A stretch of DNA of 52,485 nt, the filler included, from Mitosporidium daphniae (Eukaryota), in assembly GCF_000760515.2 (NCBI RefSeq). It is 2 parts of 2 records of this genome, joined end to end, with 100 filler letters (N's around TTAATTAATTAA, not from the genome) between each part and the next. Parts side by side here need not be neighbours in the genome. Positions count along the whole stretch, not along the records: positions 1 to 26,249 come from NW_013546152.1; 1 more part is not named here. One strand, written 5' to 3'. The first letter of the stretch is position 1, and every line of letters begins with the position of its first letter. The position numbers were made by a program, and so were the translations under genes. The notes below the pieces were generated by a model that was not told the origin of the DNA, searched no databases, and saw nothing but the letters and a program-made list of their open reading frames with translations. Shown piece by piece: positions 6,427-47,452 of the stretch.

Positions 6427-6976
6427 TCATTCTCTTGAATTCTTTTCTGGCATTGTATTTCTGTCTCGCCTTGGCGCTGCACCCTTCCACTCCCTTCCTT
6501 TTGATCCCATTTCTGGGTATTTGCGCATTGGCTTACCGCCGGACACCGTAGAAGCCGAAGCGTGGAATTTCGAGTTTTCCTTTTTTGCCCGCTCAATTAC
6601 CTACCGAAAATAAGTGGTGCAGGTATGTGCAACCTTTTCGTCAAGTCGAATATACTTGATGGTGACGCCTCTGATCATCACTTCCGGGAGCTTCCAAAAC
6701 GTCTCTCCATCCTACTAGTCAGCTGATCAGAGAATCTCACCGAGGAGGTGTATATGGCATCTGAAAGGTGCAGGTTCATCCACGGATCGACATTGAGGAG
6801 CTTGCCGTTGTATGCCTCGCCGTTTTTTAATTCAACCAGCTTGGGTGTAAGAAGGGGACACGCTTACCAGGGGAACGCCCTTTGAGATGGAAAGCAAGTT
6901 GATCGGTAGCTAAGCAATAAAGATTTCAAATACAAGAAAGCCATTTGGGCCAGAACAAAAGGCCACTTACCACCAT
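6427..6976 (-). CDS. LSM4: U6 snRNA-associated Sm-like protein LSm4, 5 exons; not in the ORF track
   Basis: Spliced product [72 protein letters not shown]. Introns include 6910-6970 and 6840-6867. Confidence 0.9.
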
Positions 6977-7616: not shown

Positions 7617-8087
7617 TCTGATGCAATTAAAAACAACAATTAAATGGACTATTAAAATGTATTACACCAAGGTGACGGCCATGGCGCGCGTGACCCAACA
7701 TTATGTATTTACTTTTAAATATTTCGACCGCCACCGTAAGAATAACTTTCATGGAGAGGTCAGACATTGATGACGGTCGAATGACGGATGGGAATAGCCC
7801 ATGGGCGACGCATTGAAATAGTCCATTTCTCGCACACAGCTCTTTGGACGTGGTTTGTTGTGATTGTTTATGTGAACACAATTGCCAACTAGGTATCGAT
7901 CAGTCAAATATACTGGTATCCAACGGATATCGTCGATCGCCGAAATCAAATCCACCCAGTGTAGATATTTAAGAAGCCAAAGGTATCACTGCTCATCATG
8001 TTCTAAATGTAACCACCAGGCTGCTCGCTCATGCCATGCCATGCCACAAAATCATGTTAATTTAGTTGCTATACATGAATCGATTAT

Positions 8088-10478
8088 TCAGCAGGGGAAC
8101 CCATCAATAAGCACGATTTCCTTGTCATCATTCACAGATGCAGCCGCTGATCTCGCCGAAGCGATATTAGCTGGAGAATCCTGCAAAGTGATGTCCACAG
8201 TGTGGTTCAATTGGCTTGCCGAACTTTGCGGGGGAGAATCGATGGCTGGCTGCAGAGACAAAATGTTGATGCATGGAGCGCTCGATGCCATATCGGTCAC
8301 ATGTACACTTTGCTTGAGCATTTCCGAAAGAATCTCTTTCAAAGTGGCCCTAGAGTATTTCATCTCTTTCGGATCAAACCAGTTTTGAAAAGATACACGT
8401 TCTTCGATCTGCCGAGCAACCTTTTCTGGATCTTGAAAGAACATATATGCATAGTTGAGAAGAAAAAGACCGCAGTCGGCGCTATTTTTTTGCATGGGCG
8501 CGTTGATGTATCTAGTATTGATCAGAGCGGAGTTTATCATCCAAACAGGGTCTGTACCCGCTTCAGGGCAATCGGTCTCCAGCAACGAGGCTTCTTGCTC
8601 GATGAACCTATCCAATTACAGCAGGAGAAACTGACCTTTTTAATATGCGAACAGTTCTAAACTTGTGCTTCCCGCCAAGAGAGTCAAATATGCATATTCT
8701 CGTCAACGGGGGCTCTGCACCAATCTGTATTTGTGCATGATCTTCATTGGCCGCAATTGAAAAATCTGAGCCAAAATCCTCGTTAGTTTCTACTATTTCA
8801 AGAGGTGATTCGCCATCAGGGGAAGAGGGCTGCTCCTTCTTGAAAAGTGATGCAGAGGGATTGCATATGATGCACAGATACCAGTGATTGCTATGAAAGA
8901 AACGGTGATAAGTACCATTCATTTACAGGAATGACCACATAGTTATAGAAGAAGATTCGCATCGGCTTATATACACGACCTTCACCTTCACTCAGCAATT
9001 GACGAAAGAAAAACGAATTTGTGAGTCTGATGCGTGGCCTCATGTTTTCCAATATCTTATGATCTGATTCTCCGCACAAAGCGTTGGGGCTATCTTGATT
9101 GAGAAAAAGCCTCAGGAAAAAGTCAACAATGGTATCATTCAAGAAAACACCATCGTCTAGCCTAAGGAACTCCTCTTCCGTAATGGTATATGCAATCCTG
9201 CCGCTGAACCGGTAAAGAAAAAGACTACCATCAAATTTTTTTCGTACCTTTTATGAGAAATCTGGGATAGACAATCTTGGGCCACGCTTCCATCATCAAG
9301 GGCAACGCAGTCTGCATCGTAGCGGGCTCTTTCTCCTTTATTGGAGACTCTGCTGCTCGATCGCCGTAAAGGGCTAGCTTTCGTGCTGTACTTTCGCAAA
9401 AGACAAGATCGAGTCTCTTGAAAAATCTCCTCTTGTAAAAGTGGCGCCCTGCATTCGTCGGGATACTCCGAAAAAAGGGTGCAAAGATGCTCTTTAGATG
9501 GGCTTATCTCTAAAATGGAAAATGCAGAGTATCATACCAATGACCGATCCGTAAAGCCCTCCCAACTTGGCATAAATTTCCTCGCATGTTATCTGGGTGG
9601 AAACGGTGAGCAGAATCTTTTGGCCTCGGATTGGAGAATCTTAAAATTGAACATTGTACCGTGATACCTTGAAAAAGAAATCAATCTTTTTACCTTTTTC
9701 GAATAGACGATGTTCCGAAGCGGATTTAGGCAAGCTATTGGCGTTATTTTCGGCCCCAGGAACACCCACAAGCAGAAAAACAAGGGATGGAAATCCGGCA
9801 TCCGAGTTTTTAGCGACCTATGGTAATTCTAAAAATAAATACCAAAATCCGATCAATTGACGCAAGCCCTGCTGAGCACTTCCAAGCAGCAGAGTCGGAG
9901 AGGCAATTGTGTAAAACCAAAAATTCGATTGAAATCCCATGCTGCTCGAAAACCAACGAGGCATGGAGCTCCGCACTCACAAACTGGGTTGCCTGTTTTG
10001 CGCTGAGGAAAGCGAGCAAGACTGTAATGTTTTTCCCTCCCCGACAATAAAACCCTGACGCAGACAAGAGAGAAATATTTGTAACCACAAACTTGAGACT
10101 GCGCTGCGAACAGACTGGGTGTGTAAATTCAGCGGTAGAGTGATCGTCCTCGCTAGCTTTCACAGCGCCATCATAGTTTGGAGCTGGTGTTTTGGCAAGA
10201 AAGTCTTGAGAGTCATCGGCTTTCGTATATGCGGCAGGTAAAAGTGAATGCATGGGTACAAATCCTTCCGGGGCCTGTTGAACAGCTCTCCTATGTCTGG
10301 CAAGTGGTATTTCCCGGCTTGCCCATTGGGCCGGTAAGGGGGCATTTTGCAAATGTGGCCCAGAAAGATTAATCGATTTTGAGGACGTATCGAACGAATT
10401 GGTTGCCCGTGAAAGCGGATTGGAGACAGGCATGGGTATCCGCCGCGCCGATGATGGGGTGTCATCATTGGAGTCCAT
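8088..10478 (-). CDS. Ulp/SENP SUMO protease (peptidase C48; Ulp2/SENP6/7-like), multi-exon
   Basis: 'FLNDTIVDFF', 'NSFFF', 'HWYLCII', 'IFDSL' and 'QKNSADCGLFLL' (His/Asp/Cys triad). Linkage of the long N-terminal exons is inferred. Confidence 0.8.
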
Positions 10479-10551
10479 GAAACTGAAAATCCAACCCTAA
10501 GTCCAAAATGTATGGCTTGAAACTTTTATTGCCAAGCCTGGTAGGCTGTAT

Positions 10552-11494
10552 TCACGAACTAGTTGACATCGAAGCCTGGACGATAGTAGCAAAGTCAGAC
10601 GTCAAAGAGGCGCCGCCAACAAGAAAGCCGTCAATATCTGGTTGCGTGGAGAGGACCTCGCAATTCTTGGCGTTCACAGAGCCACCATAGATGATACGGA
10701 TCTGCGATGCAACCTCCACACCGAGATTCTCTGCCAATGACTTGCGAATCAGTGCATGTATCTCTTGCGCCTGTGAAGGTGTGGCAACTCGACCTGTGCC
10801 AATGGCCCAGATCGGTTCGTAGGCCAACAGGAGGCGTTCGAGGATCTTTGTGCGTGCAGCGGCATCCCACGCCTTTTCAATCGATACAAAGAGGGCTTTA
10901 AGCTGGGCCGATACATACTCCCAAGTCATTCCTGCTTCACGTGTCTCCAAAGGTTCCCCAAAACAGAAGATCACAGAGAGCCCGCTATTGACAGCACTTG
11001 CGGTTTTCGCACACACAAGCTAAAGGAAAGAGAACACTCGTACCTATTTCTATTAAAAATTGTCGCTACCTAACCACAGTTATTTTAAAAACTAACCTCA
11101 TCGCTCTCGCAAAAAAGGGAACGGCGCTCTGAATGTCCCACGATGGTCCACGTCACGCCAAGCTCACGAAGCATTTCAGCGCTGGAATCAAAGGCGTTGA
11201 CTTACCTGTGCTCGCCTGTGAATGCACCAGAAGCCTTTTCATTCAGATTCTGTGCAGAAACCGCCATGATGGCCCCAGGAAATGTATTCATAGCTGGAGC
11301 AAGAAATGGGGTCGGTGGAGCAATCACAATATCCACTACGAAAGTGAGAAGCCGAGGGCACCTTTTGCAGGGTCTATTTCGTGACGTTCTACAGCACCTT
11401 TGAACTCTGCAGCTACCTGTTTGATTTTCAGCAGAGTGCCATTCATCTTCCAGTTTCCACCTACAAAGGGCTTTCTAGAGTGTGCGAGTTCCAT
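10552..11494 (-). CDS. TPI1: Triosephosphate isomerase
   Basis: RKPFVGGNWKMNG, GHSERR, AYEPIWAIGTG, YGGSV, GFLVGGASL. Two intervening sequences, 26 nt and 77 nt. Confidence 0.97.
11020..11096 (-). other. TPI intron composed of three abutting GT..AG units (27+26+24 nt)
   Basis: Minus strand: GAG|gttagtttttaaaataactgtggttag|gtagcgacaatttttaatagaaatag|gtacgagtgttctctttcctttag|CTT. Full removal restores ESDE-LVCAK. Confidence 0.8.
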
Positions 11495-11636
11495 GCAAAA
11501 CAAGTAAAATTTAAAAACCGTTTAATTTGACCACCTCATCATTTAAATGGGGACGCGTCCACAATTTGTAATTTCATCAGACCTTAGCCTAGGGTTAGGG
11601 GTAGAAATCATCCAGCACACAAATAAAGCTGGTTGC

Positions 11637-14600
11637 TTAGTCAATATGGAAACGCCGTTTTTCAAGTCGGTACGGCGTTGAGATGGAGTTTCGCCGCGGT
11701 TTGATGTTTGGATGGGGAATCGGCATTTTTTCTTTTTCTTTTTCTTTATCTTCATCTTCATCTTTAGCATTCCCATTTCTGCGAGATCTACGGCGGAAGC
11801 AGCAGAAAAGGCGCCGAACTATCCAAAGCGCCAGTTTGTATATGCGGCGCCATCGATGCAAGTAGATAAAGATGTAAATGATAAGTACGGCGATCACCAC
11901 CAAAAGGACGATGATGACAAAAATCAGGAAATTGTGGTTACCCTGGACATCATGAGGGTCGTCACCCTTAAACCTGATGCCCATGGAAGATTCTGAGGAG
12001 AAATTTTTTACCCAGTTCAAAATGCGGATGATGCTTGCAGTGGTACCGGACTTTGGGAACCCTTCTGGCGGCTTGACACACTTGCGCTCACGCACCATGA
12101 TTTGGGCCGTGGGTTCGAGACCTAGAAATTCCCTGGTTCCGTTCGCTTCAACATTCAGTGTAGTTTCATTTTCGCCGCTTTTTTTTCGGGCCGCGAAACA
12201 GTCAAGTATGGGTATCGGGTCGCACTTGGGCAAAGGGCAGAGAGCCGTCAAATTGTGATCAGCCCCAGAATTTTTCTCCTTTAAGTCACACGCTGGCCCT
12301 TCAAACCCAGGCATACATATGCACTCAAATGCGTGAATACTGTAGCTCTTTTGCAGCATCCGTCCATTTTTGCAGTTGGCGATATCACATCTCGGTCTCG
12401 ATAGGTCGGATGAAATCCAGCCGTCATAGCAATAGGCACAAAAAAGCGTTCTGGGATCTGTCTGCCCGTGTTGACAAACAGAGGAATCGCAGAAACGCCC
12501 CTGGCCAATGCGGCACGAGCCACTTAAGCAAGAACCATCGAGCGAATTTTCATCCAGGATCCCATGTATGCATCGTGCGATGCGCGTACATTTGGGTCCA
12601 TATCGCCCCAAGGGACATTGCAAGCACTTTTGTGTGAGTGGATCCATCTCTGTAACAGGATTGCATCCAGGAGTCGAGCAATCTGGCCCAGACCAATCTC
12701 CCAAGCAGGCAAGACAGAGCGGTTCTTCCTTGGATGAGAATTCTCTCCAAAGCCATTGGGAAGGTTTTGAAGATCCCCCCTCAATAAGTGCCTTCGGGTT
12801 AAAAATTCCATTCTTGCAAGCCATTTCTTCACAGGTTAGACTTTTCAACCAGCCATCGTGACAGCGGTAACAACCGCCATTCTCCAAATCTGGAGAGCCG
12901 TGTATGCATAAGGGTAAATTGCAGAGATCGCCAGTCCAGCCTGGCGGGCATTGACCGCAAGTATGACTGGCAATGATTGTGGCATAGCCTGGACGCCATG
13001 GCGGCTTCAGTTGAACTTCCACCCCGAAAGTGTCCGTTATCTGAGTGGTATTTGAAGCAGGGCACCATTTGCGTGGCTTGTCGCAGGCCTGGCCACCCCA
13101 AAAAGAAGGATTGCAAGAACCCTCCTTGCAATATCCATGTTCAAGGTCGGGAATCCCATGCACGCAAATTGGAATGTCGCAATAGTTGCCAAGTCCGGTG
13201 TTCGGCACTGGCAATGTCTGCCAGCCAGGCAGGCAGCCATGTGAGCAGCCATCCTGGATCCCCAGGGCGGGGATAATGCATCGTGTTTCATTACAAAACC
13301 GCCCAAAGTAGTACGGTGGGTTGCAGCGGGGCCTATTCAGGGCCTGATCGACCTTGCATAATCCTTGTTCACTCTCCAAATCGAGATCACCATGTATGCA
13401 ATTCGATTTCCATTGGCAGAGGTGGCCATGGTGCCCTGGGCTACATCGCCGACACCTGCTACTATCAGGATCCCACTCTAAGCACCAAGTTCGTTGACAT
13501 CCCGTCCCATAAAAACCAGGAGGACAGGCCATTTCCTCAGGTACCTGGACCCCCATCCTACGGAACGAATCTACAACTGATTTTTCGGAAGACTTCATTA
13601 ATGGACCCTCTATCGTCTCTTTGCAGAAGGGCAGCTCTGGATTTCCATGAACGACCTCGAGTATGCCCTTACGAATATCATCCGGTTCTTGCGTAACCCT
13701 GGATTTCCAACAAAAGCTACACTGCCCAAAGTCATTCTCGCTGGGAACAAGTAGCGCATCGGAAAAATTCGGGTTCAGATCTAATAGCTCTTTTCGTTGA
13801 AGGATTCGTCTGATGATAGCTAGATGGTTCTGCTGAACTTTTCTCTTAACACCCTCAGGTTCGACTACTGACTCTGTTACCATGAAAAGATCTTTAGCAC
13901 CGGAGATACGTTGTACCCGTATGCCGCCTGGCAAGCATCGCAACGGAGAAAAGCTTGTTGGTAAGATGATCTCTGATCTAGGCAAAGTTTCCTCGAGAGA
14001 TTTTTTCCAATGATTGTAATTATCGATGGGGAAGATCCGTCTCTGTGCTTCTGGAATCGCTTCAAAAAGTACTTTAGTGAGATGGTATTCCGTGAGTTTG
14101 AAGACGAAGCGGTCTGTTTTTTGATCCCGCTGCGAAAAAACGAGCACACGAAGCAGATGCATGAACCCTACAGGCAGGATATCCTCTGCTCGCCGTTCTA
14201 AACTTGCCATTCGATGCTGCAATAGGGCAGAGGAGGCGCTGTGGGCTTCACCAGCTTCGAGTTTAAGAGCTTCAAGAAAGGACTCTAAGAGGCTGCGCCC
14301 ATCGCTTGCTACCTTTCTCCAGGAAAGCCAGGAGGTACTAGATGCCTCAATGAGCGGTTTTAGCTTTTCACCCTCAAGAACCACATCCATTGAGAGAAAC
14401 CGGATACGGCTGACAAGTGCTTGCAGGAGACTATCTACATTCTGTATTAGGTCAAGGGCGTTCGCTGAAAGTGTTGCTGATTCACCTATTGCTAGTAGCG
14501 CCTGAACAAGCTCATCACGATTTTCTGGAAAATACCGCGGGATAAGGTTCCCAGAGGAACTCATATCGGACACCTTCTTCAATATGTGGGCACACGTCCA

Positions 14601-17600
14601 TTTTTCGCAGTAAGGCCCCTTAAATCCAGGCCTACATTGACACCCGACACCCGGCTCTGGGTCAAGGACACCATTTCCTTGACTTTGGGCAAGTGCCAGT
14701 TGCGCTAAGGTCAAAGGGACACCTCCACGTGTGGAGCACAATGAAAAATCACATCCAGGCGCTCTAGCCATTGCTGGATGGAGACATTGACTGTCTTCCT
14801 TGGATACTTTTGCTTCAATCGATAGCCACCCTTTAACAAGGGCATTTGGAGATATGGGCGCCGCTAATCTTTCCTTCCTGCCTGTAGAATGGTAAACAAT
14901 GTTATTCCCGCCAGAGTCTGGAAAAAGGCTAGCTGTGCCTGCACGTAGATCCATAAGCAATGCTTCAATCCAGTGTGCTGTTTCCAGCACCTGTGAGGGT
15001 ATTTTATCCGGATCTGGGAGACTCGACTGAAATAGGACCTGGTTTGGCTGCACAATTAATGGCTGGTCGCAATATGGTCCCGTCCATCCGGCTATGCACG
15101 TTTCCTCGTAGCAATAGAGAAGCGGATGCATCATATTTGGCAATCCATGCTCGCAGGCCAAGTCCCAGCAGTACGGGCCCCTCCAACCGGCCTTGCAAAT
15201 ACCAAGCTCACGATTTTGGAAGTTTTTTTTAAGCGAATGAAGAGGAGATGCCTCATCTGTTTCCGAAGAGGAAGAGGCTTCAAGTTGGCAGAAAGGACCA
15301 TAAGCATCCTCGCGCCTGCAAGGCGTTCCTTCCAAGCAAGCCCCGGAGCCTGAATCTAGATCTGGAATGCCCCACTCGCAGCGTGAAACCCATTGGCAAA
15401 GCAAACCAAATCTTTTCAACGTGGTGCATTTGGCGCATTTGATATAAAGAATATCCCAATGCTCGCAAAAACTCTCATTGCAAAGTGGCCCCCAAAAGCC
15501 CGGGAAGCACGGCCCACAAAGCTTAAGATGGGGGTCCCAAAGCCCATGATAACACGGCAAGTCATCTGCATCCAACTCACAGTATGGATTGAAAACCTGG
15601 TTTTTGTTGTCTAAAAGGGGCTCCCCCAAATTTTTTTGGTGACTTTGTGTTTCCGGTTGATGATAGCATGCTGAGCAGCGCCCATCCTGTGGGGCGCGAA
15701 TGATAAAATTGTCCGTACTACCACTGAGCAGCCTCCACATTTTCAACAAGTTTTTGTTCAAGTAATCACTCTCATATGAGCACCCATTTGAGCTCTCAAC
15801 CGCAACAAGTTTGGGTGGGAAGGGAAGTAATGCACCATTTTCGCTGAAATGGTCTATGCGCATCCCATCCGATCTGCAGATAAATCCGAATTGGCAGAGA
15901 GGAACATCGCATGCAGCGCCCTTCCAGCCTTGTTTGCACTGGAGGCAGTATCCGGTGGCTGTATCTAACATCCCATTAGCACAAATCGGTTCAGAACATT
16001 CGGAACCTCGCCAACCATATTTGCAGATGCACTTTCCGGTGAAGCGGTCTATCTCCGCCGTATGTTGCTTCTCGCAATGTGGAGATATAAGTGTGCAGAA
16101 GGTACCCCAGTACGGAAAAAGGCAATCGGAAGATCCTGGATTCGCGCCATCAACATAGGCCTGCATATTGCACCAAGACCCAAAGAAGCCCTTGCGGCAT
16201 GCTTTGCACCCATCTTTCGTGGTCGCTCCTATGCTATTGATGGAGCAAGAGGCTGCAAGCGAAGAACCGCACCATTTTCCAAGCTCTTCAAGTGTCATCA
16301 GAGGAAGTGCATCAGCATTACAACCATCAGTGCATGCGCTGACATCTTTGTTGAATAGTGTTTTGATGCCTGACCACCATGAGCTAGAGCTAGTCAAATG
16401 ATCATCCTCATCATGGGCACTAAGAAGGGGACTGTCCTTTTTTTCCGGTGTAACGCACATAGGTATTTCGCAAAAGTTGCCCAAGAAGCCTGGAGGGCAT
16501 CTGCCCTTACACCCAATCTCTGAGGTATCAGCTGAAACAGGGCAACGAGATCTCTGGCAGATGGGACCGGTCCAGCCGCGCTTACAAGCCTGCGCCCATA
16601 TTTGGCCCTCCGAAACTATAGACATCGATTGATCATCGTCATCAAGCTCTCCAACATCCATGAAGAGCCCATTGCTTTCAAAACAGTCTTTCCCAAAAAA
16701 TAGCGGATCTCGCCAGCAAGGATCAATGCATATGCCGTCTTTAGAGGCGGTATCGGTTTCTCCAGCCTGTTCATTGCATGATGTTGGTCTCGCTCTTTTA
16801 TATTGGAGTTCTTCGCCAGTTGCCTCAATTTGAACAGAACAGTGCTCGCCTGTACGTCCCGGCATGCAAAGTGTCCCATAGCAGGCAGCACTCAGATATG
16901 CATCCTTACCTCCATTCAGGGGTTCTGTGATCGGGATGATTGTGTCATCTTTTCCTAAGAGCACCGGCTGGATACAACCAGTCTCCTGGCAAAGATTTCC
17001 TCCAAAGATTTCGTGGTAGCAAATGCATCCATCATTTGTTGGAGAGGGTACACCATGTTGACAGGTGCTTTGCAAACAGTAGGGTCCTCCCCATCCAGGC
17101 TCGCATTGAGCGCACCACCTGGGGTCAATATCACCTCCCTGTTGTTCCCACATCATCGGCCACTGCATACACGTGGATCTCTCACATTTTGAGCCCATCC
17201 ATCCAGGATCACACTTGCAACCATGGCCATTTGGCAAGATCTTGCCATGTCCCCCGCAAATGAATTCGCTACCTTCGCAGTATGGCAGTGAATATTGCCT
17301 GGAATCACACGAAATGCATGTTCCATCTTCCCAATTAACGACGCCGTTCTGACACCGAGGCTTATCGCAATAAAACCCTTCAAATCCTGGCTTCAAGCAT
17401 GGCTGAATGCAGGGCAGTTCCGGCCATTTTTCGTAGTTCGGATTTCCATGCACACAGTGGAGCTTGCAGTCCTTTGTGCAGCCGCTTCCAGGTTTTCCGT
17501 TCATTTCAGAACCCAAATCGCATTGTTCACTGGTGCCCTCCATGAAGAAATAGTAATGTCCTGGGTGGGTGTGGCCCCAGTTACAGAAGATCGGAACCGT

Positions 17601-18452
17601 CATAAACGGATCCTCGTAACCACAGATGAGAGCATGGGGCATCAGACTTGTATAGCGACGACCATATCCGTGTGAAAGCCCTGCATGTGGTGCTGTTAGC
17701 TCTACAATACCGTTTCCGCAGTAGTGCAAAAAAACATTCCGAGTCTCCATGCCTGAATTACAGGCACTTGCAACCAAAGGTCCCCAGCGGCACTCCCGCC
17801 AACAGCCTACCTTTTCGCCATATGGACAATCATAGTTCATTGGAGGTGTGAGCATTGGAGCATATGGGCCCCCCATGGCACTGCGAGCGCCATCGCCAAG
17901 TTGCTCAAGTGCCTTGAATTCACAAGATTCTCCGGTGTTAATTACCCCGTCTCCACATACTGCTGGGCGTAACTCGTCTGAAAATACTGAGCGTAAATAG
18001 TGTAACACAGGCATTGGTGTGCCAGCAGGCGCACACTTGGCTTTTTCCAGCAACCCGATAGCGTATTGTTTCCCGGATCGAGGAAGCGAGTGCAAATGGT
18101 AGAATAAATCCAGATTCCATCCATCATAAATATTGCCATCTCCGCCTGCAGATGCAAACGACTTATCTGGGTCATATCTATTATCGGGCCTGATGATATT
18201 CTGCATATAAAGCCCATAGTCAATGGGTAAGTAAAACTCCGAATAAATTCGCCTATGAAATAAGGTTTGCGGAGAAGGAAATGCATTTAGCCTTGCTCCT
18301 GAGTAAGAGTCTATGGATCTCCAATTGAGAGGTTTATATCTTTTTTCCCTTGCCAACTCATGGAAGCATATTTGATTTGAAGAAATGATATGGTCCTTGT
18401 TGAAAAGAACGCAAACGAAAAGAAAAAAAAAGCAGATTCCCTTATGGGACAT
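11637..18452 (-). CDS. Giant (~2271 aa) Cys-rich, EGF/laminin-EGF-like repeat type-I membrane protein
   Basis: Single ORF. ATG 18452 begins a signal-like MSHKGICFFFLFVCVLF, followed by many CxxGW/FxGxxC repeats, CGDG/CGNG Cys-rich motifs, a C-terminal hydrophobic helix FLIFVIIVLLVVIAVLIIYIFIYL and a basic tail. Confidence 0.85.
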   Translation of the reverse strand: MSHKGICFFFLFVCVLFNKDHIISSNQICFHELAREKRYKPLNWRSIDSYSGARLNAFPSPQTLFHRRIYSEFYLPIDYGLYMQNIIRPDNRYDPDKSFASAGGDGNIYDGWNLDLFYHLHSLPRSGKQYAIGLLEKAKCAPAGTPMPVLHYLRSVFSDELRPAVCGDGVINTGESCEFKALEQLGDGARSAMGGPYAPMLTPPMNYDCPYGEKVGCWRECRWGPLVASACNSGMETRNVFLHYCGNGIVELTAPHAGLSHGYGRRYTSLMPHALICGYEDPFMTVPIFCNWGHTHPGHYYFFMEGTSEQCDLGSEMNGKPGSGCTKDCKLHCVHGNPNYEKWPELPCIQPCLKPGFEGFYCDKPRCQNGVVNWEDGTCISCDSRQYSLPYCEGSEFICGGHGKILPNGHGCKCDPGWMGSKCERSTCMQWPMMWEQQGGDIDPRWCAQCEPGWGGPYCLQSTCQHGVPSPTNDGCICYHEIFGGNLCQETGCIQPVLLGKDDTIIPITEPLNGGKDAYLSAACYGTLCMPGRTGEHCSVQIEATGEELQYKRARPTSCNEQAGETDTASKDGICIDPCWRDPLFFGKDCFESNGLFMDVGELDDDDQSMSIVSEGQIWAQACKRGWTGPICQRSRCPVSADTSEIGCKGRCPPGFLGNFCEIPMCVTPEKKDSPLLSAHDEDDHLTSSSSWWSGIKTLFNKDVSACTDGCNADALPLMTLEELGKWCGSSLAASCSINSIGATTKDGCKACRKGFFGSWCNMQAYVDGANPGSSDCLFPYWGTFCTLISPHCEKQHTAEIDRFTGKCICKYGWRGSECSEPICANGMLDTATGYCLQCKQGWKGAACDVPLCQFGFICRSDGMRIDHFSENGALLPFPPKLVAVESSNGCSYESDYLNKNLLKMWRLLSGSTDNFIIRAPQDGRCSACYHQPETQSHQKNLGEPLLDNKNQVFNPYCELDADDLPCYHGLWDPHLKLCGPCFPGFWGPLCNESFCEHWDILYIKCAKCTTLKRFGLLCQWVSRCEWGIPDLDSGSGACLEGTPCRREDAYGPFCQLEASSSSETDEASPLHSLKKNFQNRELGICKAGWRGPYCWDLACEHGLPNMMHPLLYCYEETCIAGWTGPYCDQPLIVQPNQVLFQSSLPDPDKIPSQVLETAHWIEALLMDLRAGTASLFPDSGGNNIVYHSTGRKERLAAPISPNALVKGWLSIEAKVSKEDSQCLHPAMARAPGCDFSLCSTRGGVPLTLAQLALAQSQGNGVLDPEPGVGCQCRPGFKGPYCEKWTCAHILKKVSDMSSSGNLIPRYFPENRDELVQALLAIGESATLSANALDLIQNVDSLLQALVSRIRFLSMDVVLEGEKLKPLIEASSTSWLSWRKVASDGRSLLESFLEALKLEAGEAHSASSALLQHRMASLERRAEDILPVGFMHLLRVLVFSQRDQKTDRFVFKLTEYHLTKVLFEAIPEAQRRIFPIDNYNHWKKSLEETLPRSEIILPTSFSPLRCLPGGIRVQRISGAKDLFMVTESVVEPEGVKRKVQQNHLAIIRRILQRKELLDLNPNFSDALLVPSENDFGQCSFCWKSRVTQEPDDIRKGILEVVHGNPELPFCKETIEGPLMKSSEKSVVDSFRRMGVQVPEEMACPPGFYGTGCQRTWCLEWDPDSSRCRRCSPGHHGHLCQWKSNCIHGDLDLESEQGLCKVDQALNRPRCNPPYYFGRFCNETRCIIPALGIQDGCSHGCLPGWQTLPVPNTGLGNYCDIPICVHGIPDLEHGYCKEGSCNPSFWGGQACDKPRKWCPASNTTQITDTFGVEVQLKPPWRPGYATIIASHTCGQCPPGWTGDLCNLPLCIHGSPDLENGGCYRCHDGWLKSLTCEEMACKNGIFNPKALIEGGSSKPSQWLWREFSSKEEPLCLACLGDWSGPDCSTPGCNPVTEMDPLTQKCLQCPLGRYGPKCTRIARCIHGILDENSLDGSCLSGSCRIGQGRFCDSSVCQHGQTDPRTLFCAYCYDGWISSDLSRPRCDIANCKNGRMLQKSYSIHAFECICMPGFEGPACDLKEKNSGADHNLTALCPLPKCDPIPILDCFAARKKSGENETTLNVEANGTREFLGLEPTAQIMVRERKCVKPPEGFPKSGTTASIIRILNWVKNFSSESSMGIRFKGDDPHDVQGNHNFLIFVIIVLLVVIAVLIIYIFIYLHRWRRIYKLALWIVRRLFCCFRRRSRRNGNAKDEDEDKEKEKEKMPIPHPNIKPRRNSISTPYRLEKRRFHID

Positions 18453-18906
18453 ATGATAGAGGTGAATATGAGGAATCAAGTGCTAGGATTTGTCGCTGCA
18501 TAATGATAAGTACACCTGTTCGATTTCATCTGACAATCGGTCACATGGCAAAATGGCAAGGCGAATTGCAAATCGAATGGCTACGGTTTATCAAAACACC
18601 AACTGAGGATGTTTATACTGCAATTGCGCATGCCAACCCTAAAAGTAAATTCTACCAAATGTAGGGTTGGAATCCATATTTGGAGATCAAATCGATCTTG
18701 TGCAAAAATTAATCTTATCGCGAAATGGATGTTGTGGCGAAAATTGCGGCCATATAAACTTTTGTCTGCTTGGATTTACATAAATAACTGTGGACCTGCA
18801 TATCGAATACATGGGTGCATGGCAGGCATCGCGCTACATGGCCCAGCGTGATGTATGTGTTGTATTCAATTCGGATTTGAGTTCGAGCTTAAAGTTGAAT
18901 TTTCTA

Positions 18907-21900
18907 CTACCAGAAGGGACACCTAAAGTGAGAAAAACATACTTGCTTACCATCCGACATAACACTGGCACAGATTTTCAATATCTGTAGCCTGGTCGAT
19001 AAGCAAAGACACCTGGCTTTTGTAGTCCAAAGGCTTTTCTTGATGCTGGAAATCGGTTCCCGCCAGTTTTTCGGAAACTCTACTTATGGCCTTGAGCACC
19101 TTTATCGTGGCATGATCTTGAGGCATGCCATCTTCTTCAGCGACGGGCAAAAGGTCATCTATCCCTAACCAATATGCAATAAATACCTTTTGGCCTGTTA
19201 TTTACATCATGGTCAACAATAGAAGAGGGCAATTCAATGAAAAAGGAGGAAAAGGCCTTTTTCGATAACTCGGGTGGATATGTTGACATTTGATCAGATA
19301 TCGGTTCCGGAGTGCTTGATAGCCGCATGCTGATAAGGGGATCATAGATGAAGGCCTCCAGAACCGCCAATAGGCTCTCTTTGTTTGAGCGCAAAACGCG
19401 AAGAACGTGTTCGCAAATTATGCGAAACATTCCTCTGGTCTTTGACACCTCCATAGCATTTACAAGCATTCGAGTAAGCCGAAACGGGACCTGCTCTGGA
19501 AACTTTTCGCGATGAATGGACACCTACGGTAAATGATAAAAGCAGCCGATCCTAACCTCAAAGCAGTCTCCAAAATCGATATGTATGATGCGGCCGCTTT
19601 CGCGGTCGACCAGCAAATTTGACGGGTGACGGTCGCCTAGCCCAAGAACATATCCGACCATAGACATCAAGGCAAGGCTTTTCTGATACAAAGTACGCCT
19701 TTCAAGCCAATGTTCGGTGGACTTTGATTGCAGCCAAAAGATTTTAGACAGCTCATCTCCCGGAAATGTATTCAAAGCCGAAGTGAAGATCTCAATCTTG
19801 TGCAACATTGGGAGAGAATCATAATTTGACGAGTTCTACATCGAAAATGATAAATAGGCGCCGAAATACCTTGAGCATGTGCTGGTGCTCATCAATCAGG
19901 GGAATGTTGCGTTCCGAACGGTAACTCTTCAAAAGATCATGAATGGTATCGCAGCGCCTGACCCAACCGAGTAGTCCAGTGGTGGGCGAGATCGGAATCA
20001 CAGGATACTTTTGAATTTGAAGATGGCGTCTTTTGGTTTCTGCATCCTCCAACAAAATGCTATTGACAAGGCCAAAAAACTGCATCACCCTTTCATCTTG
20101 TCGAAGATCTCCGTTTCCTACAAAGTGTAATTGTACCACGTACCTTTCAACAGAAATTTGTAAACCAACCCGTCGGAGCCGATTATTTTCAATTTTTTTG
20201 GTCTTTGTTTTGATTGGATCAGATTGATGGTCGGTTGAAATGAAGCTATGCAAACCGCCGCTGTGGGGCCATAAGAATACGTGCCTAATCGCATTAGGGG
20301 CCAAAAATACCTGGAACGGCTAGCTGAAAATCTCGCTGCGAAAATATGGAAGGGCTCACAGAGGAAAGGTTTATATCATGAAAGAGAGCAAGAGTTTGGC
20401 TCAACTGCTCAAATACATTTGTATACAAATCCCAGGCCAGAACTAGATCTTCAGAATTTTTTGAATGCAAGTAAGTAAGAATATATTCTCTCGCCTTTTT
20501 CAGGACAGATCCGTATTGTTCGATAAAATTAGCCTCGTCCTTGGTTTTGGGTTCTTGCTGGATTACTTGGTGGAGATAATCCAGTATTCGTATGGAGCCA
20601 GAAATATCCTTCTGCGCGTGATACAGCCTGCTGGCTTCTTCGAGCCCATCAGACCACAGCTCAGACCATAAAACAGCAACACGAACCAATTCATTGCAAA
20701 TCAGGAGAGTCTATCAGCGGTAAATAAATTGGGGGAATCAAACCTGATCCACCAAAACAGGGGAGGACAATCTGATTTTGTTAAGCAATCCTATGGCAAT
20801 GGACTTTCTTTGTGAATTGGTCGATTTAGATGCAACGGCAAGGCTGTACAGCAACGATTGCGGATGTGAATTATTGATTTCCAACAGCAGCTGATGTACA
20901 ATTCGCCTGATCGAAATATTACTTATTTGGATACGAGCAATGAGCTAAGATGAAAAATGCAAAGTGGACATACTTGAGGTATGACTTGAAGCCATGCATC
21001 GATTGGCAGTATCGAGCATCCATTCAAAAAGGATTTTTGTATAGAGGGGTGCGAGCCATATTTAAATAGCAGTGTCAAGATGCGTAGCAAATCTTGGATC
21101 GACGATTCGTGCTTGTTAAGCGAAATGGACTTTATTAGCCCGGAAATGGCTGAAATGATGATGTTGATCAATGAGGAGCTTGTCTCACCATCACTGGATT
21201 TGGAGTCCTTAAAAAGGGAGTGGGGCGATGCGGGAAAATTTGAGCGAGCCAGTTTTGAGGCCGCTTTTGTCGAATCGTGTTGGCTAATTAGCTCGATGTT
21301 TGACAAAGCCCAGGAATACCATGACTTGTACGAATTGCTATCAAGCTGGATTGAAAATTTTTGAAGAGTGATGATGTCAGATGAAAAGGTACTTTCTTTC
21401 GAAAATAGATTCCGTTCCATATATAAGCCGGTGGTGCCTGCGGACTCAATAGAGCTGCTTCCCATTGCCTTTTTCCATTTAGAATACAACACTAGCAATT
21501 TAGATAAAAAGGCGTGAAGGTTGTTGGACACCGAAACATCGCTGTCTTTGGTGGAAAGAGTTTCCTTCGTAGATAGCTGCTGCAAATTCGACGTGATCGC
21601 CTCAACGCTGTTTTTGTCCGCCAAATTCCGGGATGCCAACATACCGCCATTCAATGGCTCAATTAGCTTCAAAATGTGGCTGCACACCAAAAACCCATTG
21701 CCACTAATGCCGTTGCAATCGCAATCTGGGCACAATGTTGCTATCACAAAAGAAATCAACTTGGACAAAACGGTGATGGACAGCTCATGCTTTTGGAGGT
21801 CGTTGAGGATCTTTGAGAGATTCAAAATCAAATGAAATAACTCGAAATTATTGTAAAATTCGACGAAAAGGCTCGAAATCGAAGATGAGCTAAATGCAGG

Positions 21901-24900: not shown

Positions 24901-26250
24901 GCAGGTGGAGGAGCGCGATATGTTTATAAAGCAAGATAATATCGACTGTCTGGCATTGTCAGCCTCATCTAGCAAGAATTTATCGACGGCAACGCTTTTT
25001 TGTTTTGGATACGTCAAAATACGTGTGGAGCTGTCCTCCATGGTCTCCAAAAACATTTCAATCAGCAACGACCAAATCAGATTGACATTGAAGCAATCCA
25101 GATCTTCTGAGGAAAGAAATAATTCACCAAGTGTTTCCAATAAGTGGGCTCTGTACGAAGAAAATGCCATGCCATCCGACTCCCTTAAAGAGGCATGCAA
25201 GATATCGAAAAGCTGCTTGATATATGGCCTCATGTATGAGTGAAAGTATTTCAAAAACTGCCTAATCATGTAAATCGAGTTCTGTTTCAACTTTGCATTG
25301 CTAGATGTGGCCATTAAGGTGTTGAGGAGCATCTCTATGCTTTGATGTAGGGACTTCAGGATGATCATGGGGTTTTTTTCCGAAATCTTAGAGATAAGGT
25401 TGACACAAGAATGTTGCACCGTGAACGATTCGTCATTTAACCCAAGAACAATCAGATCTGAATAGTGGGGATAGGAAAGTATTTCGATAAAATTCTTCTT
25501 GTTGAGAGACGTGTAAACGCAATTCCTGATTTCTTCGTTGAAATCAAGAAGCCCCACATTAAGGATACGGCCGATCGTCTCGTTTGGAGGTGCTTGACAC
25601 GACAACAGTACCAAATCAGAACGGTTTATTGTAAAATATACAGATTTCTCAATTACATAACACAGGCAGATAATAGATTCTTCGCGGATCGATTTTGAAT
25701 CATGCTTGATGAAATGCAGAGAGATCCCAAGAGAAAACACATCAAGGGACAGGTTATGAAAGTTAAAATTATACAGAGCCCGAAGGGAGGCGATTATTTC
25801 TTGAAAATTGTCTTTGGGCTTGATGAGGTCCAGATTGAAGGCGAGCAAGTACTTTGAGGTCAAGTTGGAAACCCCGATGTCGAAAAGTGACACCGATATG
25901 ATTTCGAGAAGGTTATTTTGGATGTAGCTTAAATATTCCGGAAACAATGTGCTGATTTCAATCAGACATGACAGCAGTTGCTGCGTCAAGATGGGAATGC
26001 TTTTAGGAAAATAGGACGTACTTGTGGAGAAAATAATCTGAAGTATCTCGCTTACAAATGGGGAAAGCATGTTACTGCCTCCACAACATGATACTGCATT
26101 TTTGAAAAAATCGCATATGTAATCGTCGACCAAATAGGAGGCCGGCTTTTTCTTCAGCCTTCGTGTCAAAAATTCTCTGATGGAATCAAAAATGTCCCTA
26201 AAAAAAACAGTCATCGATTCCTTGAAAATTTGCACAAGTACGTCCTATTN
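18907..26250 (-). CDS. TOR: Target of rapamycin kinase (HEAT, FAT, FRB, kinase, FATC); 5' end lost in the gap
   Basis: WLQVIPQLIARI, FRB '[17 protein letters not shown]...AWDLY', [41 protein letters not shown] '[13 protein letters not shown]' is completed across a final 28-nt intron. Confidence 0.95.
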
Positions 26251-26349
26251 NNNNNNNNNNNNNNNNNNNNNNNNNNNNNNNNNNNNNNNNNNNTTAATTA
26301 ATTAANNNNNNNNNNNNNNNNNNNNNNNNNNNNNNNNNNNNNNNNNNNN
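26251..26349. other. Assembly gap with artificial six-frame-stop linker TTAATTAATTAA (26294-26305)
   Basis: N-runs flank a 12-mer that carries stops in all six frames. Both flanking genes lack their 5' ends. Confidence 0.9.
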
Positions 26350-30173: not shown

Positions 30174-30264
30174 ATAAATTATTGTTTAACACTACGAGCA
30201 CGCAACTCCACACGTGCGGAGGCCGCCCAAAAAAATTCCACACGTCGGGTTATTTATTTTTAGA

Positions 30265-30330
30265 ACAAAACTCATTCATTTGGGGGACAAAATTCATTCA
30301 TTTGGGGGACAAAATTCATTCATTTTTGGA
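30265..30330. repeat. 22-nt tandem repeat x3 overlapping the CysRS stop codon
   Basis: acaaaa(c/t)tcattcatttggggg twice plus a diverged third copy. Confidence 0.85.
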
Positions 30331-32792
30331 ACGAAATAACTTTTCCTGCTGCTGATATTCTTTTATCAGCTTTTTTATGCGCGATTTTGGCAATTCCTCC
30401 CCTGCAGCATCATGTGTAGGGATTCCCTATAAATAAATTCAAACGCAGTTCCAACCTGTTCGTCAAATTTTGAATACAAAGACAGATCCTTGAACATTTC
30501 CGAAGGGCAAATTAGTGCTCTGGTATGTCTTTGTGCCTGGCGCTGTTGAGATATGGCTGCCATTTCTTTCTTTTTGTGCAGCGAGGCCTGCATGCTCTAC
30601 GTGATTTTAAACTAGTCAAAAAACCTGCTCCTTCTCTTCTTTCATCCTTTTTAAAGTATCCTGGTCAAGGATCTTTACAAGCGCAGCTAGATGGCCACTT
30701 CCTTCAGTGGTCCTATCCTCCAAAATAACGCCAAGATCGGGGCAACCATTGTCTCGAAGCTGATCGCACAATTCGAGAAGCATTTTTGGACTGATTTGCT
30801 GGCCTTTCTGAAGCGCTTCAAAGGAGAGGGCCCTTAGCTTATCCCTGAAGGATGAAATCAGGTGTGCAGATTTGGCAAATAAGGAGCTCTAGTTTAAAGT
30901 AAGCATTGATGGGAAATGCCATACCTGCGACACGGTGCATTGGTCGTTAAGGTTCGCAAAACTAACCCCAAAGGCCTTTAAAATCTTCTCAATATAAGCA
31001 GAGATTTCACTAAGCAATTGCGAGTAAACGGACGCATCTCCCTTGTTTTTCAAGTACACTCTGCAATCGCTCATCAGAGCGTTAAGCGATTTCAAGACAG
31101 AGGGCGTATCAAACGAGTCGCAAAGGGAAGCATGCACGGCTTCTTGGCAAGCAAACAGAGACTGCGACAAGCTTTTCTCTTCATCGCCAAAAAACGATAC
31201 AAATTGGGAGTCTTCTCCAAGGCCTCTAATTACCGCATCAACCTGTGCAAAAAAATTAACAAATGAAGCTTCAAGAGAAACAGTCTCCAACATCGAGGTC
31301 TCTTTGTAATCAAGAGTGGAAGACCATGTATGGGTGAGGAAAAATAATCTCAATTGACGAGAGGTCCATCTAGACAAAGCTTCCTATGATAAAGTTGATC
31401 GGATCCAGGGCACCAACCTTGATGGTGATGAAATTTTTCAAACTCTTGGACATTTTTTGCCCCTCAATGTGAAGATGTCCTGTGTGCAGGAAATAATTAA
31501 CCCATTGCTCACAATCGTACTGTGCCTAATCGTTAATTGCTGTTTTAACCCGATGGACTACCTCTGATTGAGCAAGCTCATTGTCATGATGCGGGAAGGC
31601 AAGATCAACACCACCGGAATGGATGTCAAGAACACCAGGGATCACATCTCCGGCCATTGCCGAGCATTCAATATGCCATCCGGGGCGACCGGGCCCCCAG
31701 GGAGATGGCCATACAGGCTCTCCTGCTTTCGAATGCTTCCAGAGCGCAAAATCGGCATTGGAACGCTTGCCGTGAGATAAATTTCCAAGAGCGCCCTCGC
31801 CCTCTTCAAGGAGCTTTTGGCGGTCAGCAGACTGTGGGCACAGCTTTGCATATGTGTGCTTTGGAGAGTTGTTAAACTTCAAAGTGTCAAAGTAAATTGA
31901 ACCATCGAGCTGATACCTAAAAATAACAGGGCATTGAAAGGCTACCCGTAGCCGTTGTTAATAATTTCCTGGATGCAAGAAACTATCTGCGGAATGTATT
32001 CGCTTACGCGAGTAAGCACAGCGGGCGGTAGCACGTTCAACGCTTCCATATCATCAAAGAACTCTTTTTCCCAATACTCTGGCAATTCCTTGAATATTTT
32101 AGGATCGGAAAGAGTATGTCCATATTGCGAGTCCAAATAGGAGCCCAAAAGCGCGTGAATAGATTCGGGGATGGTGGAGTGTTCTTTTCCTTTGACAAAC
32201 GCAAGGGCATCAATAAGAGCCTCAAGAAATGCAGGAGGCTCTTCAGCAGCATTTTTCGCTCCGTGTGAAAGCAAAAACGAGCGAATGGACTCGGAACAAG
32301 TAAACGTCGATAATTTCGAAAGATCCACTTGATCAGAAGATAGAGCAAGTCGGGAAGAAAGATAATGCGCTACAGCCTTTTCGACTAGCTTTACGATACC
32401 ACTGGGAGCAAGCTCAGGCTTTTCGGCCCCGGACAGCTGGGATAAAAGTTGGGATGTAAGAAACTCTTGACGGGCTCGAAGAATGATCTTATCATCGACA
32501 TCCGTGATGTTCATTACAAACTGGATGTTGTATCCAAAGTAGTCCGTCATAATTCGCCGAATGATATCAATGGTCACATAATTTCTGCATGTAAACTAAG
32601 CTCAAAATGATACCTTGCATGGCCCATATGCGATGCATCATAGACTGTCGGTCCGCAAGAGTACCACCTGATCAGCGCGTCGGCACGTTCGGGGATGAAT
32701 TCGGTCTTTTCTTTGGCAAGCGTGTTCAAAATTTTCAATTTCGGTTGCATCGATTTCGAGGTTGTTGGCATCTTCCATTTGCTTGTGGCCAT
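30316..32792 (-). CDS. CARS1: Cysteinyl-tRNA synthetase, multi-exon; possible upstream in-frame start at 32984
   Basis: [64 protein letters not shown] and KMSKS. All frame breaks fall on short GT-AG introns. Confidence 0.95.
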
Positions 32793-32853: not shown

Positions 32854-32979
32854 ACTAATGTGATGATTAAGCTTACTAATCTGCAGATTAAACTTGCTAA
32901 TCTGCGGACTAAACTTACTAATCTGCGGCTTAAACTTACCAATGTGCCGATTAAACTTACTAATGTGCCGATTAAACTT
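32854..32979. repeat. 21-nt minisatellite, 6 degenerate copies, upstream of and in frame with CysRS
   Basis: Consensus actaat(c/g)tgc(c/g)gattaaactt starting at 32854, 32875, 32896, 32917, 32938 and 32959. Confidence 0.9.
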
Positions 32980-44095: not shown

Positions 44096-45600
44096 ATGAG
44101 CGAGACTTTGGATCGCACCGAAATGATGGCACCACCAGTTAAATTTCCAAAAAAAAAGGTCGCATTGGTTCTAGCCTATTTAGGCACAAACTATCAGGGA
44201 ATGCAAATGTATGTTGGGTGGCCTTTTATTTTAGAAATCCAAATGCCAAAACTATAGAGTCCGCCCTATTCAAGAGCTTGGTTGATTCGGAACTGGTTTC
44301 TGAGCTCAACTCCACGGACCAAAAGAAGGTTTGCTTGGGTTTCTTTCCGCTAGATTGGATTGATGAGAGCCTGTCGCACAGACAAGGGTGTCCATGCAGC
44401 CATGCAAGTGGTGTCTTTGAAGGTTATTTTTAAAGACCCCATTGCGAGCATCATGAGCTCAATCAATTCACATTTGCCCAAGGATATTAGGGTCTGTGGT
44501 ATCCATCCGGTGAGCCAGACTTTCGACTCAAAGTTGCATTGTGATTCGAGATTTTACGAATATTTGCTGCCGACGTTTATGTTTAAATGCGACTCTTCCT
44601 TTGATTTGTCCTTTTTGGAGAACATGGCCGCAAAAAGGGACACTTTAGATGGCAAAAACGAGGCTGCAAGCGACGGTTCTGAATGTGAAGACAATGTTGC
44701 TGGAAATGAAGATCAAGCCTCGATGCAAAAACACAAGCTCGCCGCCGATTTCTATTCCAATAATTTTAAGCCTACTTTGGCCGACATTGAGCAGCTTTCG
44801 GCGTTTCGCCTATCTTCAAAGGAGAAAGACCGACTTGACGCCTTGCTAAAATGCTTTGAGGGCTCCCACTTTTTCCACAACTACACGATCAAAAAGTCGG
44901 CCGTAGATCCCAGTGCATGCAGGAAAATTATCTCCTTTTCGGTGGGTACTTTTTTGCTAACTTTCAGAGCTCGGATCCATTCGTTCTAAATAACAACTGC
45001 ACCGATCGTGCCGACTTGACTTTGGCGTCCTCGGAGTGGATCAAATTGACCATCCACGGACAGTCTTTCATGCTGAACCAAATTAGAAAGCTCATTGGTA
45101 TCCTTTGCCTCTTATCCCTAGGAATGGTGATCATGATTATGCGTCTCGATGTCCAGGATTATTCGATGGTCATTTCCAGGAGTCTTTCGAAATCCGAAAA
45201 AATGAATGTCCCAAAAGCCCCTGGCGTGGGTCTCTTGTTAGCTCAAGTATGAGTGTGCTTTTTACTTTAGGCGTGTTTTTCGCAATACAACAAACGTATT
45301 TCAGAGATAAATCCGCTATCCTATGATACCTATGCGCTCGAGATTGATTCCTTCAAGGAAAAGGAAATTTATCCTGCCATTGCCAGTGAAGAGTTTTCCA
45401 AAAACATATTCATGAATTGGTGGTGTGCTATCTCCCTGCATGCATATGATTTCCAGTATGTCCTACAACAGTGGACACCACCTGATTCTGAAGTATCGAA
45501 AAAAAAAATTAAAAAGGGCAAATACAGTGCCGATCAAGCATCTCAGAGCGAGCCCCCCAAGGTCGAGCAAAAGAATCCGGATCCCAGCATATCTCAATAA
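44096..45600 (+). CDS. PUS1: tRNA pseudouridine synthase 1 (TruA family), 6 exons
   Basis: KKKVAL..YLGTNYQGMQ, RACRTDKGVHA, GSHFFHNYT, GQSFMLNQIRKLIG, PKAPGVGL. Confidence 0.92.
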
Positions 45601-47381: not shown

Positions 47382-47452
47382 TAATTAAAAGGACGAATTT
47401 CAAGTGCTAATTAAAAGAACGAATTTCAAGTGCTAATTAAAAGGACGAATTT
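47382..47452. repeat. 26-nt tandem repeat x2.7 directly upstream of the uS7m ATG
   Basis: taattaaaag(g/a)acgaatttcaagtgc starting at 47382, 47408 and 47434 (partial). Confidence 0.9.

What the first reader, a model, noticed from the sequence alone, without database searches (positions are those of the whole stretch)
11020..11096. TPI intron made of three back-to-back micro-introns: candidate recursive splicing with zero-length exons
Seen: TPI needs exactly 77 nt removed between ESDE and LVCAK, about three times the 23-38 nt typical of introns here. The 77 nt parse into three GT..AG units joined by tAG|GTa junctions: 11096-11070 (27 nt), 11069-11044 (26 nt) and 11043-11020 (24 nt). Each unit has the normal intron size and end sequences, and the units are not copies of each other. 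Retaining unit 1 or 3 gives an in-frame stop; retaining unit 2 shifts the frame. Known: recursive (ratchet AG|GT) splicing is described mainly for very long animal introns, and fungal stwintrons are nested rather than tandem. Inference: a length-measuring micro-intron spliceosome removes this intron in three steps, possibly as a timing or NMD-coupled control.
Basis: partly seen in the sequence, partly recalled or inferred. Interest (0 to 1): 0.9.

Follow-up and report, generated by a model that had tools for sequence, protein, structure and literature searches.

The report
Three stacked micro-introns in Mitosporidium TPI
In the water-flea parasite Mitosporidium daphniae, whose predicted introns are mostly 23-37 bases long, a glycolysis gene carries a 77-base intron made of three intron-sized units placed end to end, which is likely cut out in three successive steps, far smaller ones than any stepwise splicing I found described.

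Summary
Observation confirmed. The gene is Mitosporidium daphniae TPI. Exactly 77 nt must go, and one contig from a probably-RNA run skips exactly these 77 nt. They tile into GT..TAG units of 27, 26 and 24 nt joined by TAG|GTA, unrelated to each other. Chance tiling: 16-601 of 200,000. The two junctions rank 1 and 3 of 90 two-unit chains in the window. A 'first AG at least 23 nt from the donor' rule fits 59 of 63 curated introns and yields exactly these units; one cut would have to pass four TAGs. Against: no intermediate was seen; unit 3 lacks a branch-type A; one-piece long introns exist here (LSM4 61-64 nt; S23 152 nt), so no strict length ruler. Best reading (0.65): three successive cuts by nearest-acceptor choice. 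A timing or NMD role has no support. Zero-length-exon splicing is known in flies, humans and yeasts, in introns of about 200 nt and longer. This scan already noted such stacks, mostly described as copies, in Rozella DNA; here the units have diverged and whole-stack removal is seen.

The parts
11362..11494 (-). TPI exon 1 (ATG at 11494)
   Evidence: equals the public model P0121
11336..11361 (-). TPI intron 1, 26 nt, single
11206..11335 (-). TPI exon 2
11182..11205 (-). TPI intron 2, 24 nt, single; left out in the X20 contig
11097..11181 (-). TPI exon 3, ends ..ESDE; last bases AG, so the outer donor is itself AG|GT
11020..11096 (-). TPI intron 3, 77 nt, phase 0, removed exactly in the X20 contig
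11070..11096 (-). unit 1, 27 nt GT..TAG; donor 37th, acceptor 63rd percentile of single introns; branch-like TAAC at 11082-11079
11067..11072 (-). junction 1, TAG|GTA, zero-length exon; competing TAG at 11066
11044..11069 (-). unit 2, 26 nt GT..TAG; donor 38th, acceptor 63rd percentile; branch-like TAAT at 11055-11052; competing TAG at 11050 (20 nt from its donor)
11041..11046 (-). junction 2, TAG|GTA, zero-length exon; best two-unit chain of the window
11020..11043 (-). unit 3, 24 nt GT..TAG; donor 81st percentile; no A between -18 and -5; most pyrimidine-rich 3' end of all; 20 of 24 bases identical to the PUS1 intron at 45247-45270
10552..11019 (-). TPI exon 4, begins LVCAK.., includes the stop
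6910..6970 (-). control: LSM4 intron 1, 61 nt (64 if the donor is at 6973), no internal AG past the donor; cannot be tiled
   Evidence: predicted, not RNA-shown
44329..44353 (+). control: PUS1 intron, 25 nt, no A before the final AG, yet needed for an ungapped match to yeast Pus1
45247..45270 (+). PUS1 intron, 24 nt, near twin of unit 3

Best explanation
The 77-nt third intron of Mitosporidium daphniae TPI consists of three end-to-end GT..TAG units with no exon between them and is likely removed in three successive splicing reactions, because a donor in this organism is predicted to pair with the first AG at least about 23 nt away. Shown: anatomy, exact net removal, improbability of the tiling. 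Inferred: each cut rebuilds an AG|GT joint, so the six tandem orders all give the same mRNA, and 15 partly nested three-step routes reach it too. Inferred: unit 3 branches at a base other than A, as an A-less PUS1 intron must. Origin, less certain: the intron position is probably ancient (recalled: shared with vertebrate, plant and Aspergillus TPI) and two units were added at the AG|GT joint, either by old tandem duplication whose interiors have since diverged or by insertion of a copy of another intron; the joints were kept because they are used. No regulatory role is needed.
For: Exact 77-nt skip in one contig of a probably-RNA run. Chance tiling 16-601 of 200,000 for AG|GT joints, 0-5 of 200,000 for TAG|GTA. 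All six splice-site scores lie at the 37th-81st percentile of 63 curated single introns. Junctions rank 1 and 3 of 90 two-unit chains in the window; rank 2 is a real intron followed by coding sequence. First AG at least 23 nt from the donor is the modelled acceptor in 59 of 63 introns; iterating the first-YAG rule returns 27/26/24 here and one 61/64-nt piece for LSM4; a single cut must pass TAGs at 27, 31, 47, 53 nt and a GAG at 60 nt, whereas in the 63 introns a TAG lying 22 nt or more from the donor is passed twice, by 3 and 6 nt. Units 1 and 2 each hold a TRAY branch-like motif at -11 and -10. Joints are perfect although interiors are unrelated. Unit 3 is 20/24 identical to a free-standing intron (1 and 16 of 2,000 shuffles) and matches the A-less PUS1 intron at 7 of 8 places at -13..-6, the best of 63. 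Precedent in fungi.
Against: No intermediate junction or lariat was seen; the RNA evidence is one contig of depth 3.6 from a run only guessed to be RNA, and contigs drop rare forms. Unit 3 has no A at -18..-5, true of only 1 of 63 singles, while A at -7/-8 is enriched (45 of 63 against 24.6 expected; 0 of 5,000 shuffles), and its 3' end is more pyrimidine-rich (0.93) than all 63, as for a long-range acceptor. One-piece long introns exist in this species (LSM4 61-64 nt; S23 152 nt, PMC6349667). Depletion of internal YAG in single introns is not significant (3 seen, 6.1 expected). The 23-nt threshold was chosen on the same data, and the gene finder favoured short introns. No relative's DNA was found to test conservation. 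In human introns under 1 kb, ordinary lariats outnumber recursive ones (PMC10156609).
Confidence: 0.65

Rival explanations
1. One ordinary 77-nt intron removed in a single reaction, branching at an A near 11041-11038 and using unit 3 as a long pyrimidine tract; the internal TAG|GTA joints are chance or unused relics of earlier duplications.
For: Only the full skip was seen. Unit 3 lacks a branch A but has the richest pyrimidine tract, with As at -19 and -22. Long one-piece introns exist. The intron was picked after it was noticed.
Against: Must ignore four TAGs, two with their own branch-like motif at the usual distance. Chance tiling is at most 3 in 1,000. Unused joints should decay as fast as the interiors, which no longer resemble each other.
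Confidence: 0.24
2. Two steps: one micro-unit (1 or 2) is cut first, and the remaining 50-51 nt, which include the branch-less unit 3, go as one piece.
For: Units 1 and 2 have branch-like motifs, unit 3 has none; 61-64-nt introns appear possible.
Against: The remaining piece still holds a TAG with a branch-like motif 26-27 nt from its donor, which the first-AG rule would choose.
Confidence: 0.08
3. The stack is a selected regulatory device (delay or NMD switch for TPI), in addition to being cut stepwise.
For: All 7 retained forms end early.
Against: Early stops are expected for any retained intron; no structure (z 0.40), no Rfam match, no conservation or condition data.
Confidence: 0.07
4. Hidden micro-exons lie between the units, or the 77 nt are an assembly error.
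For: Many multi-intron parses keep the frame open.
Against: Those parses insert, drop or alter residues where 20 TPIs have no gap; the X20 contig skips 77 nt with no letters between; the X15 contig carries the 77 nt unbroken.
Confidence: 0.02

Closest known systems
Recursive splicing through zero-length exons in fungi: C. neoformans BOT1 (375 nt = 210 + 165; bioRxiv 10.1101/224170, passages), S. pombe SPNCRNA.445 (336 nt; bioRxiv 10.1101/226894, passages), Candida/Debaryomyces snoRNA clusters (PMC5033589, passages)
   Same: A 3' splice site directly followed by a 5' splice site inside one intervening sequence, net removal exact.
   Different: Units here are 24-27 nt, three in a row, in a coding gene, with no snoRNA cargo; intermediates are shown there and not here.
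Drosophila and mammalian ratchet points (PMC8605326, abstract and Introduction; PMC10156609, passages)
   Same: Tandem acceptor-donor YAG|GT that is regenerated after a cut.
   Different: Those lie in introns of 0.2 kb to hundreds of kb and depend on a cryptic downstream exon; here there is no room for one, and order need not be 5' to 3'.
Fungal stwintrons (PMC7138796, abstract and passages; PMC8469720, abstract)
   Same: Complex intron removed by consecutive U2 reactions, with the smallest possible intron chosen first; families of look-alike 'sister' introns.
   Different: No unit interrupts another's donor, branch point or acceptor; nested routes are possible here (15 of 21) but none is obligatory.
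   Same: Head-to-tail GT..AG units of normal size in a related lineage.
   Different: Several of those notes describe copies of one intron, one says no RNA could test it; here units are unrelated and whole-stack removal is seen in one contig.

Membership tests
Recursive splicing via zero-length exon | Internal YAG|GT: acceptor directly followed by donor | tested here: met
   two TAG|GTA joints, scores within the range of real sites
Recursive splicing via zero-length exon | No internal base kept in the mature RNA | tested here: met
   77-nt skip with no letters between in one contig; no gap in 20 TPIs
Recursive splicing via zero-length exon | Intermediates joined at the internal sites | tested here: inconclusive
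   none in 1 contig of depth 3.6; contigs drop rare forms
Recursive splicing via zero-length exon | A branch point and lariat for each piece | tested here: inconclusive
   motif only: present in units 1 and 2, absent in unit 3; lariats not testable
Recursive splicing via zero-length exon | Internal sites conserved in related species | tested here: inconclusive
   no related locus found: 80 of 80 kept loci were at most 49% identical; no fragment above 62%
Metazoan ratchet point | Very long host intron | tested here: not met
   77 nt
Metazoan ratchet point | Cryptic downstream exon defined before the first cut | not testable with these tools
   joints are 26 nt apart, so an exon of about 50 nt does not fit; inference
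Stwintron | Internal intron interrupts donor, branch element or acceptor of an external intron, forcing an order | tested here: not met
   all six tandem orders reach the product; both outer sites are intact in the DNA
Tandem duplication of a whole intron | Units resemble each other | tested here: not met
   pair scores at the level of unrelated introns; no tandem repeat called there; an old duplication is not excluded
Introner-like / sister introns | Family of similar introns at unrelated sites | tested here: inconclusive
   two look-alike pairs among 2,145; a second pair that high in 0 of 300 null sets, twice; only 52 kb examined
snoRNA-bearing intron | Known RNA family or stable fold inside | tested here: not met
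   0 Rfam matches to E 5; fold z 0.40

The most novel reading that the evidence does not exclude
In Mitosporidium and its rozellid relatives, introns of about 25 nt stack up at existing AG|GT joints, by duplication or by insertion of copies of other introns, and are cut one at a time as the normal route; the joints outlast all similarity between units, and some units branch without an adenosine. Recursive splicing would then be a by-product of intron gain at the smallest intron scale, across a whole early fungal lineage.
Probability: 0.4. Interest if true: 0.8.

Novelty: new variant of a known kind. Interest (0 to 1): 0.6.

Why it matters
The recursive splicing I found described uses pieces of 165 nt and far longer. 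Three abutting 24-27-nt introns leave no room for exon definition or for two spliceosomes at once, so they test directly whether nearest-site choice alone drives stepwise splicing, and all intermediates fit in one short read. They also bear on how introns are gained: a new intron landing at an exon-intron joint costs no coding change. An intron that must be cut with no branch adenosine is a second testable oddity.

Tried and rejected
No whole genome is held, so the genome-wide test was not possible. No listed run is on record as RNA; one guessed RNA run covered only TPI within 8000-14000; RNA support for the window's other introns remains open. Metagenome scan for related loci: 80 loci kept, best 49% identity, none a close relative. 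A 73%-identical TPI fragment (P0002) begins after the junction; a search for shorter fragments across it gave 17 hits, none above 62%. Public gene models for 8 neighbouring proteins were mapped but several are evidently wrong, and P0001 mis-models intron 1, so they are weak support; both TPI models drop the same 77 nt. First gene-finder run fused genes and was redone; it also mis-parsed this intron. A second candidate pair (9693-9640, 26 + 28 nt) could not be tested: no homolog. RNA fold and Rfam: nothing. Unit-to-exon similarity: none notable. The conserved position of this TPI intron could not be sourced and is recalled. The 2014 genome paper is not held.

Full report
Identity. Exon 4 matches Pfam TIM and is 100% identical to triosephosphate isomerase of Mitosporidium daphniae (P0001). 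A second public model (P0121, 271 aa) has the same exon structure as mine. No whole genome is held.

The intron runs 11096-11020 on the minus strand and splits into 27, 26 and 24 nt, each GT..TAG, joined twice by TAG|GTA. All 7 forms that keep one or more units stop early. Twenty aligned TPIs have no gap at ESDE|LVCAK. Of 4 runs laid on 8000-14000, one (X20, guessed RNA) gave one contig of depth 3.6 that lacks the 24-nt intron 2 and skips exactly 77 nt with no letters between; a contig of X15 carries the whole stretch without gaps; no other letter was listed inside the intron. No partial skip was listed, which one shallow contig cannot decide.

Reference set. My gene finder called 81 introns. 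I kept 62 and added 1 by hand, giving 63 (36 in Pfam-matched or recognisably conserved stretches by my reading, 27 by model only). The 19 dropped were 6 in a gene tail, most of them over the opposite-strand helicase, 3 calls at the TPI site itself, 8 at gene ends or with GC donors, and the LSM4 61-nt and Ulp-like 51-nt calls, treated apart; 7 of the 19 were longer than 37 nt. The kept set spans 23-37 nt, median 28; 56 of 63 end in TAG, 47 of 63 start GTA, 34 of 63 follow an exonic AG. The finder had a prior for short introns, so the range is partly selected. Only one of the 63 is RNA-shown.

Chance. A 77-mer tiled into 23-37-nt units in 601, 87 and 5 of 200,000 dinucleotide shuffles (AG|GT, YAG|GT, TAG|GTA), 143, 37 and 1 of 200,000 mononucleotide shuffles, 16, 2 and 0 of 200,000 simulated introns, and 0 of 5,269 intergenic windows. 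Donors score at the 37th, 38th and 81st percentile of real introns, acceptors at the 63rd. Among 90 possible two-unit chains on both strands the two joints rank 1 and 3; rank 2 is a real intron followed by coding sequence, which shows that such scores can arise by chance once. The units resemble each other no more than unrelated introns do.

Mechanism. The first AG at least 23 nt from the donor is the modelled acceptor in 59 of 63 introns (threshold chosen on these data; 53-57 of 63 at 20-22 nt). Iterated, the first-YAG rule returns the three units, and returns one 61- or 64-nt piece for LSM4 intron 1. A single cut would pass four TAGs and a GAG. Internal YAG is not significantly depleted in single introns (3 seen, 6.1 expected). 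With pieces limited to 23-37 nt there are 21 routes to the product, all of three steps: 6 tandem orders and 15 partly nested. So I infer three successive cuts driven by nearest-acceptor choice, not by an upper length limit. The limit is contradicted by LSM4: its exon 3 starts at residue 16 of human LSm4 and exon 2 holds 14 codons, which places a 61-64-nt intron after the start codon with no AG past its donor (predicted; 8,641 of 20,000 shuffles also lack one). A 152-bp S23 intron is reported for this species (PMC6349667).

The weak point is unit 3. A at -7 or -8 is enriched in single introns (45 of 63, 24.6 expected, 0 of 5,000 shuffles); units 1 and 2 have TRAY motifs at -11 and -10; unit 3 has no A from -18 to -5 and the richest pyrimidine tract of all. 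That suits a single cut branching at -19 or -22. But 1 of 63 singles is also A-less (44329-44353), is required for an ungapped fit to yeast Pus1 residues 124/125, and matches unit 3 at 7 of 8 places at -13..-6, the best of the 63. Stand-alone removal of unit 3 therefore has a precedent in the same window.

Origin. Unit 3 is 20 of 24 identical to the PUS1 intron at 45247-45270 (1 of 2,000 shuffles; 16 of 2,000 when ends are fixed). A second look-alike pair exists (20973-20945 and 9537-9510). Two pairs this high arose in 0 of 300 null sets under each of two nulls. This hints at copying of introns between genes but rests on 52 kb, and shared selection on T-rich sequence is not excluded. Exon 3 ends in AG, so the outer donor is an AG|GT site where an inserted or duplicated intron makes a zero-length exon. 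That this TPI intron position is ancient is recalled, not sourced. No related DNA was found to test any of this.

Regulation. No fold beyond shuffles (z 0.40), no Rfam match. Nothing supports a timing or NMD role.

Literature seen. Passages: 10.1101/226894, 10.1101/224170, PMC5033589, PMC10156609 (recursive sites in introns from 0.2 kb, ordinary lariats preferred under 1 kb), PMC7138796 (with abstract), PMC6349667 (and part 2 of its Results), PMC10245619, PMC8476143, 10.1101/2022.06.06.494994 (no mention of Rozella or Mitosporidium in the main text, supplements closed and could list them), PMC12449221 and PMC12534020, both with 0 occurrences of 'intron', PMC12558613 (not relevant). Abstract and Introduction: PMC8605326. 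Abstract only: PMC8469720. Ten searches listed no paper on stacks of micro-introns in this lineage; most subscription papers, including the 2014 genome paper, are not held, and supplements were not read.

Earlier notes. This scan recorded 9 similar findings in other DNA, 8 shown, four naming Rozella allomycis; none in this genome. They are unchecked AI notes and not independent support.

Verdict. Real and non-random anatomy; exact net removal seen once; stepwise removal likely (0.65) but unproven. New variant of a known kind. Interest 0.6.

Noticed in passing
window 6910-6970 (-): LSM4 intron 1 is 61 nt (64 with the abutting upstream GT) with a GTAAGT donor and no internal AG: a long one-piece intron among micro-introns.
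   Followed up: partly
window 44329-44353 (+): A 25-nt PUS1 intron holds no adenosine before its final AG, yet homology requires its removal; suggests non-A branching.
   Followed up: partly
window 45247-45270 (+) and 11020-11043 (-); 20945-20973 (-) and 9510-9537 (-): Two pairs of look-alike introns in unrelated genes (20 of 24; 22 of 29 columns), above 300 null sets; possible intron copying.
   Followed up: partly
window 9640-9693 (-): Second candidate pair, 26 + 28 = 54 nt with an AAG|GTA joint, whose joint removal opens the frame in the Ulp-like gene; AAG acceptors are rare here and a single 36-nt or 51-nt removal also opens it.
   Followed up: partly
window 26250-26349: Two runs of 44 N around a 12-base spacer: the window appears to be two contigs joined (26,249 and 26,136 nt, the contig lengths listed).
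   Followed up: no
window 11336-11404 (-): The older public TPI model (P0001) has a wrong stretch around intron 1; P0121 agrees with my model.
   Followed up: yes
window 11640-18482 (-): Intronless-looking 2,281-codon frame with EGF-like repeats, likely a large surface protein.
   Followed up: no
window 6712-6740 (-): LSM4 intron 3 ends TAGTAG, an in-frame pair of acceptors (26 or 29 nt).
   Followed up: no
window 30263-30337, 32854-32979, 47382-47452: Short tandem arrays (22, 21 and 26-nt units) in intergenic or untranslated DNA; not intron-like.
   Followed up: no
window 10830: G>C difference in three runs, matching the Leu/Val difference between P0001 and P0121.
   Followed up: no
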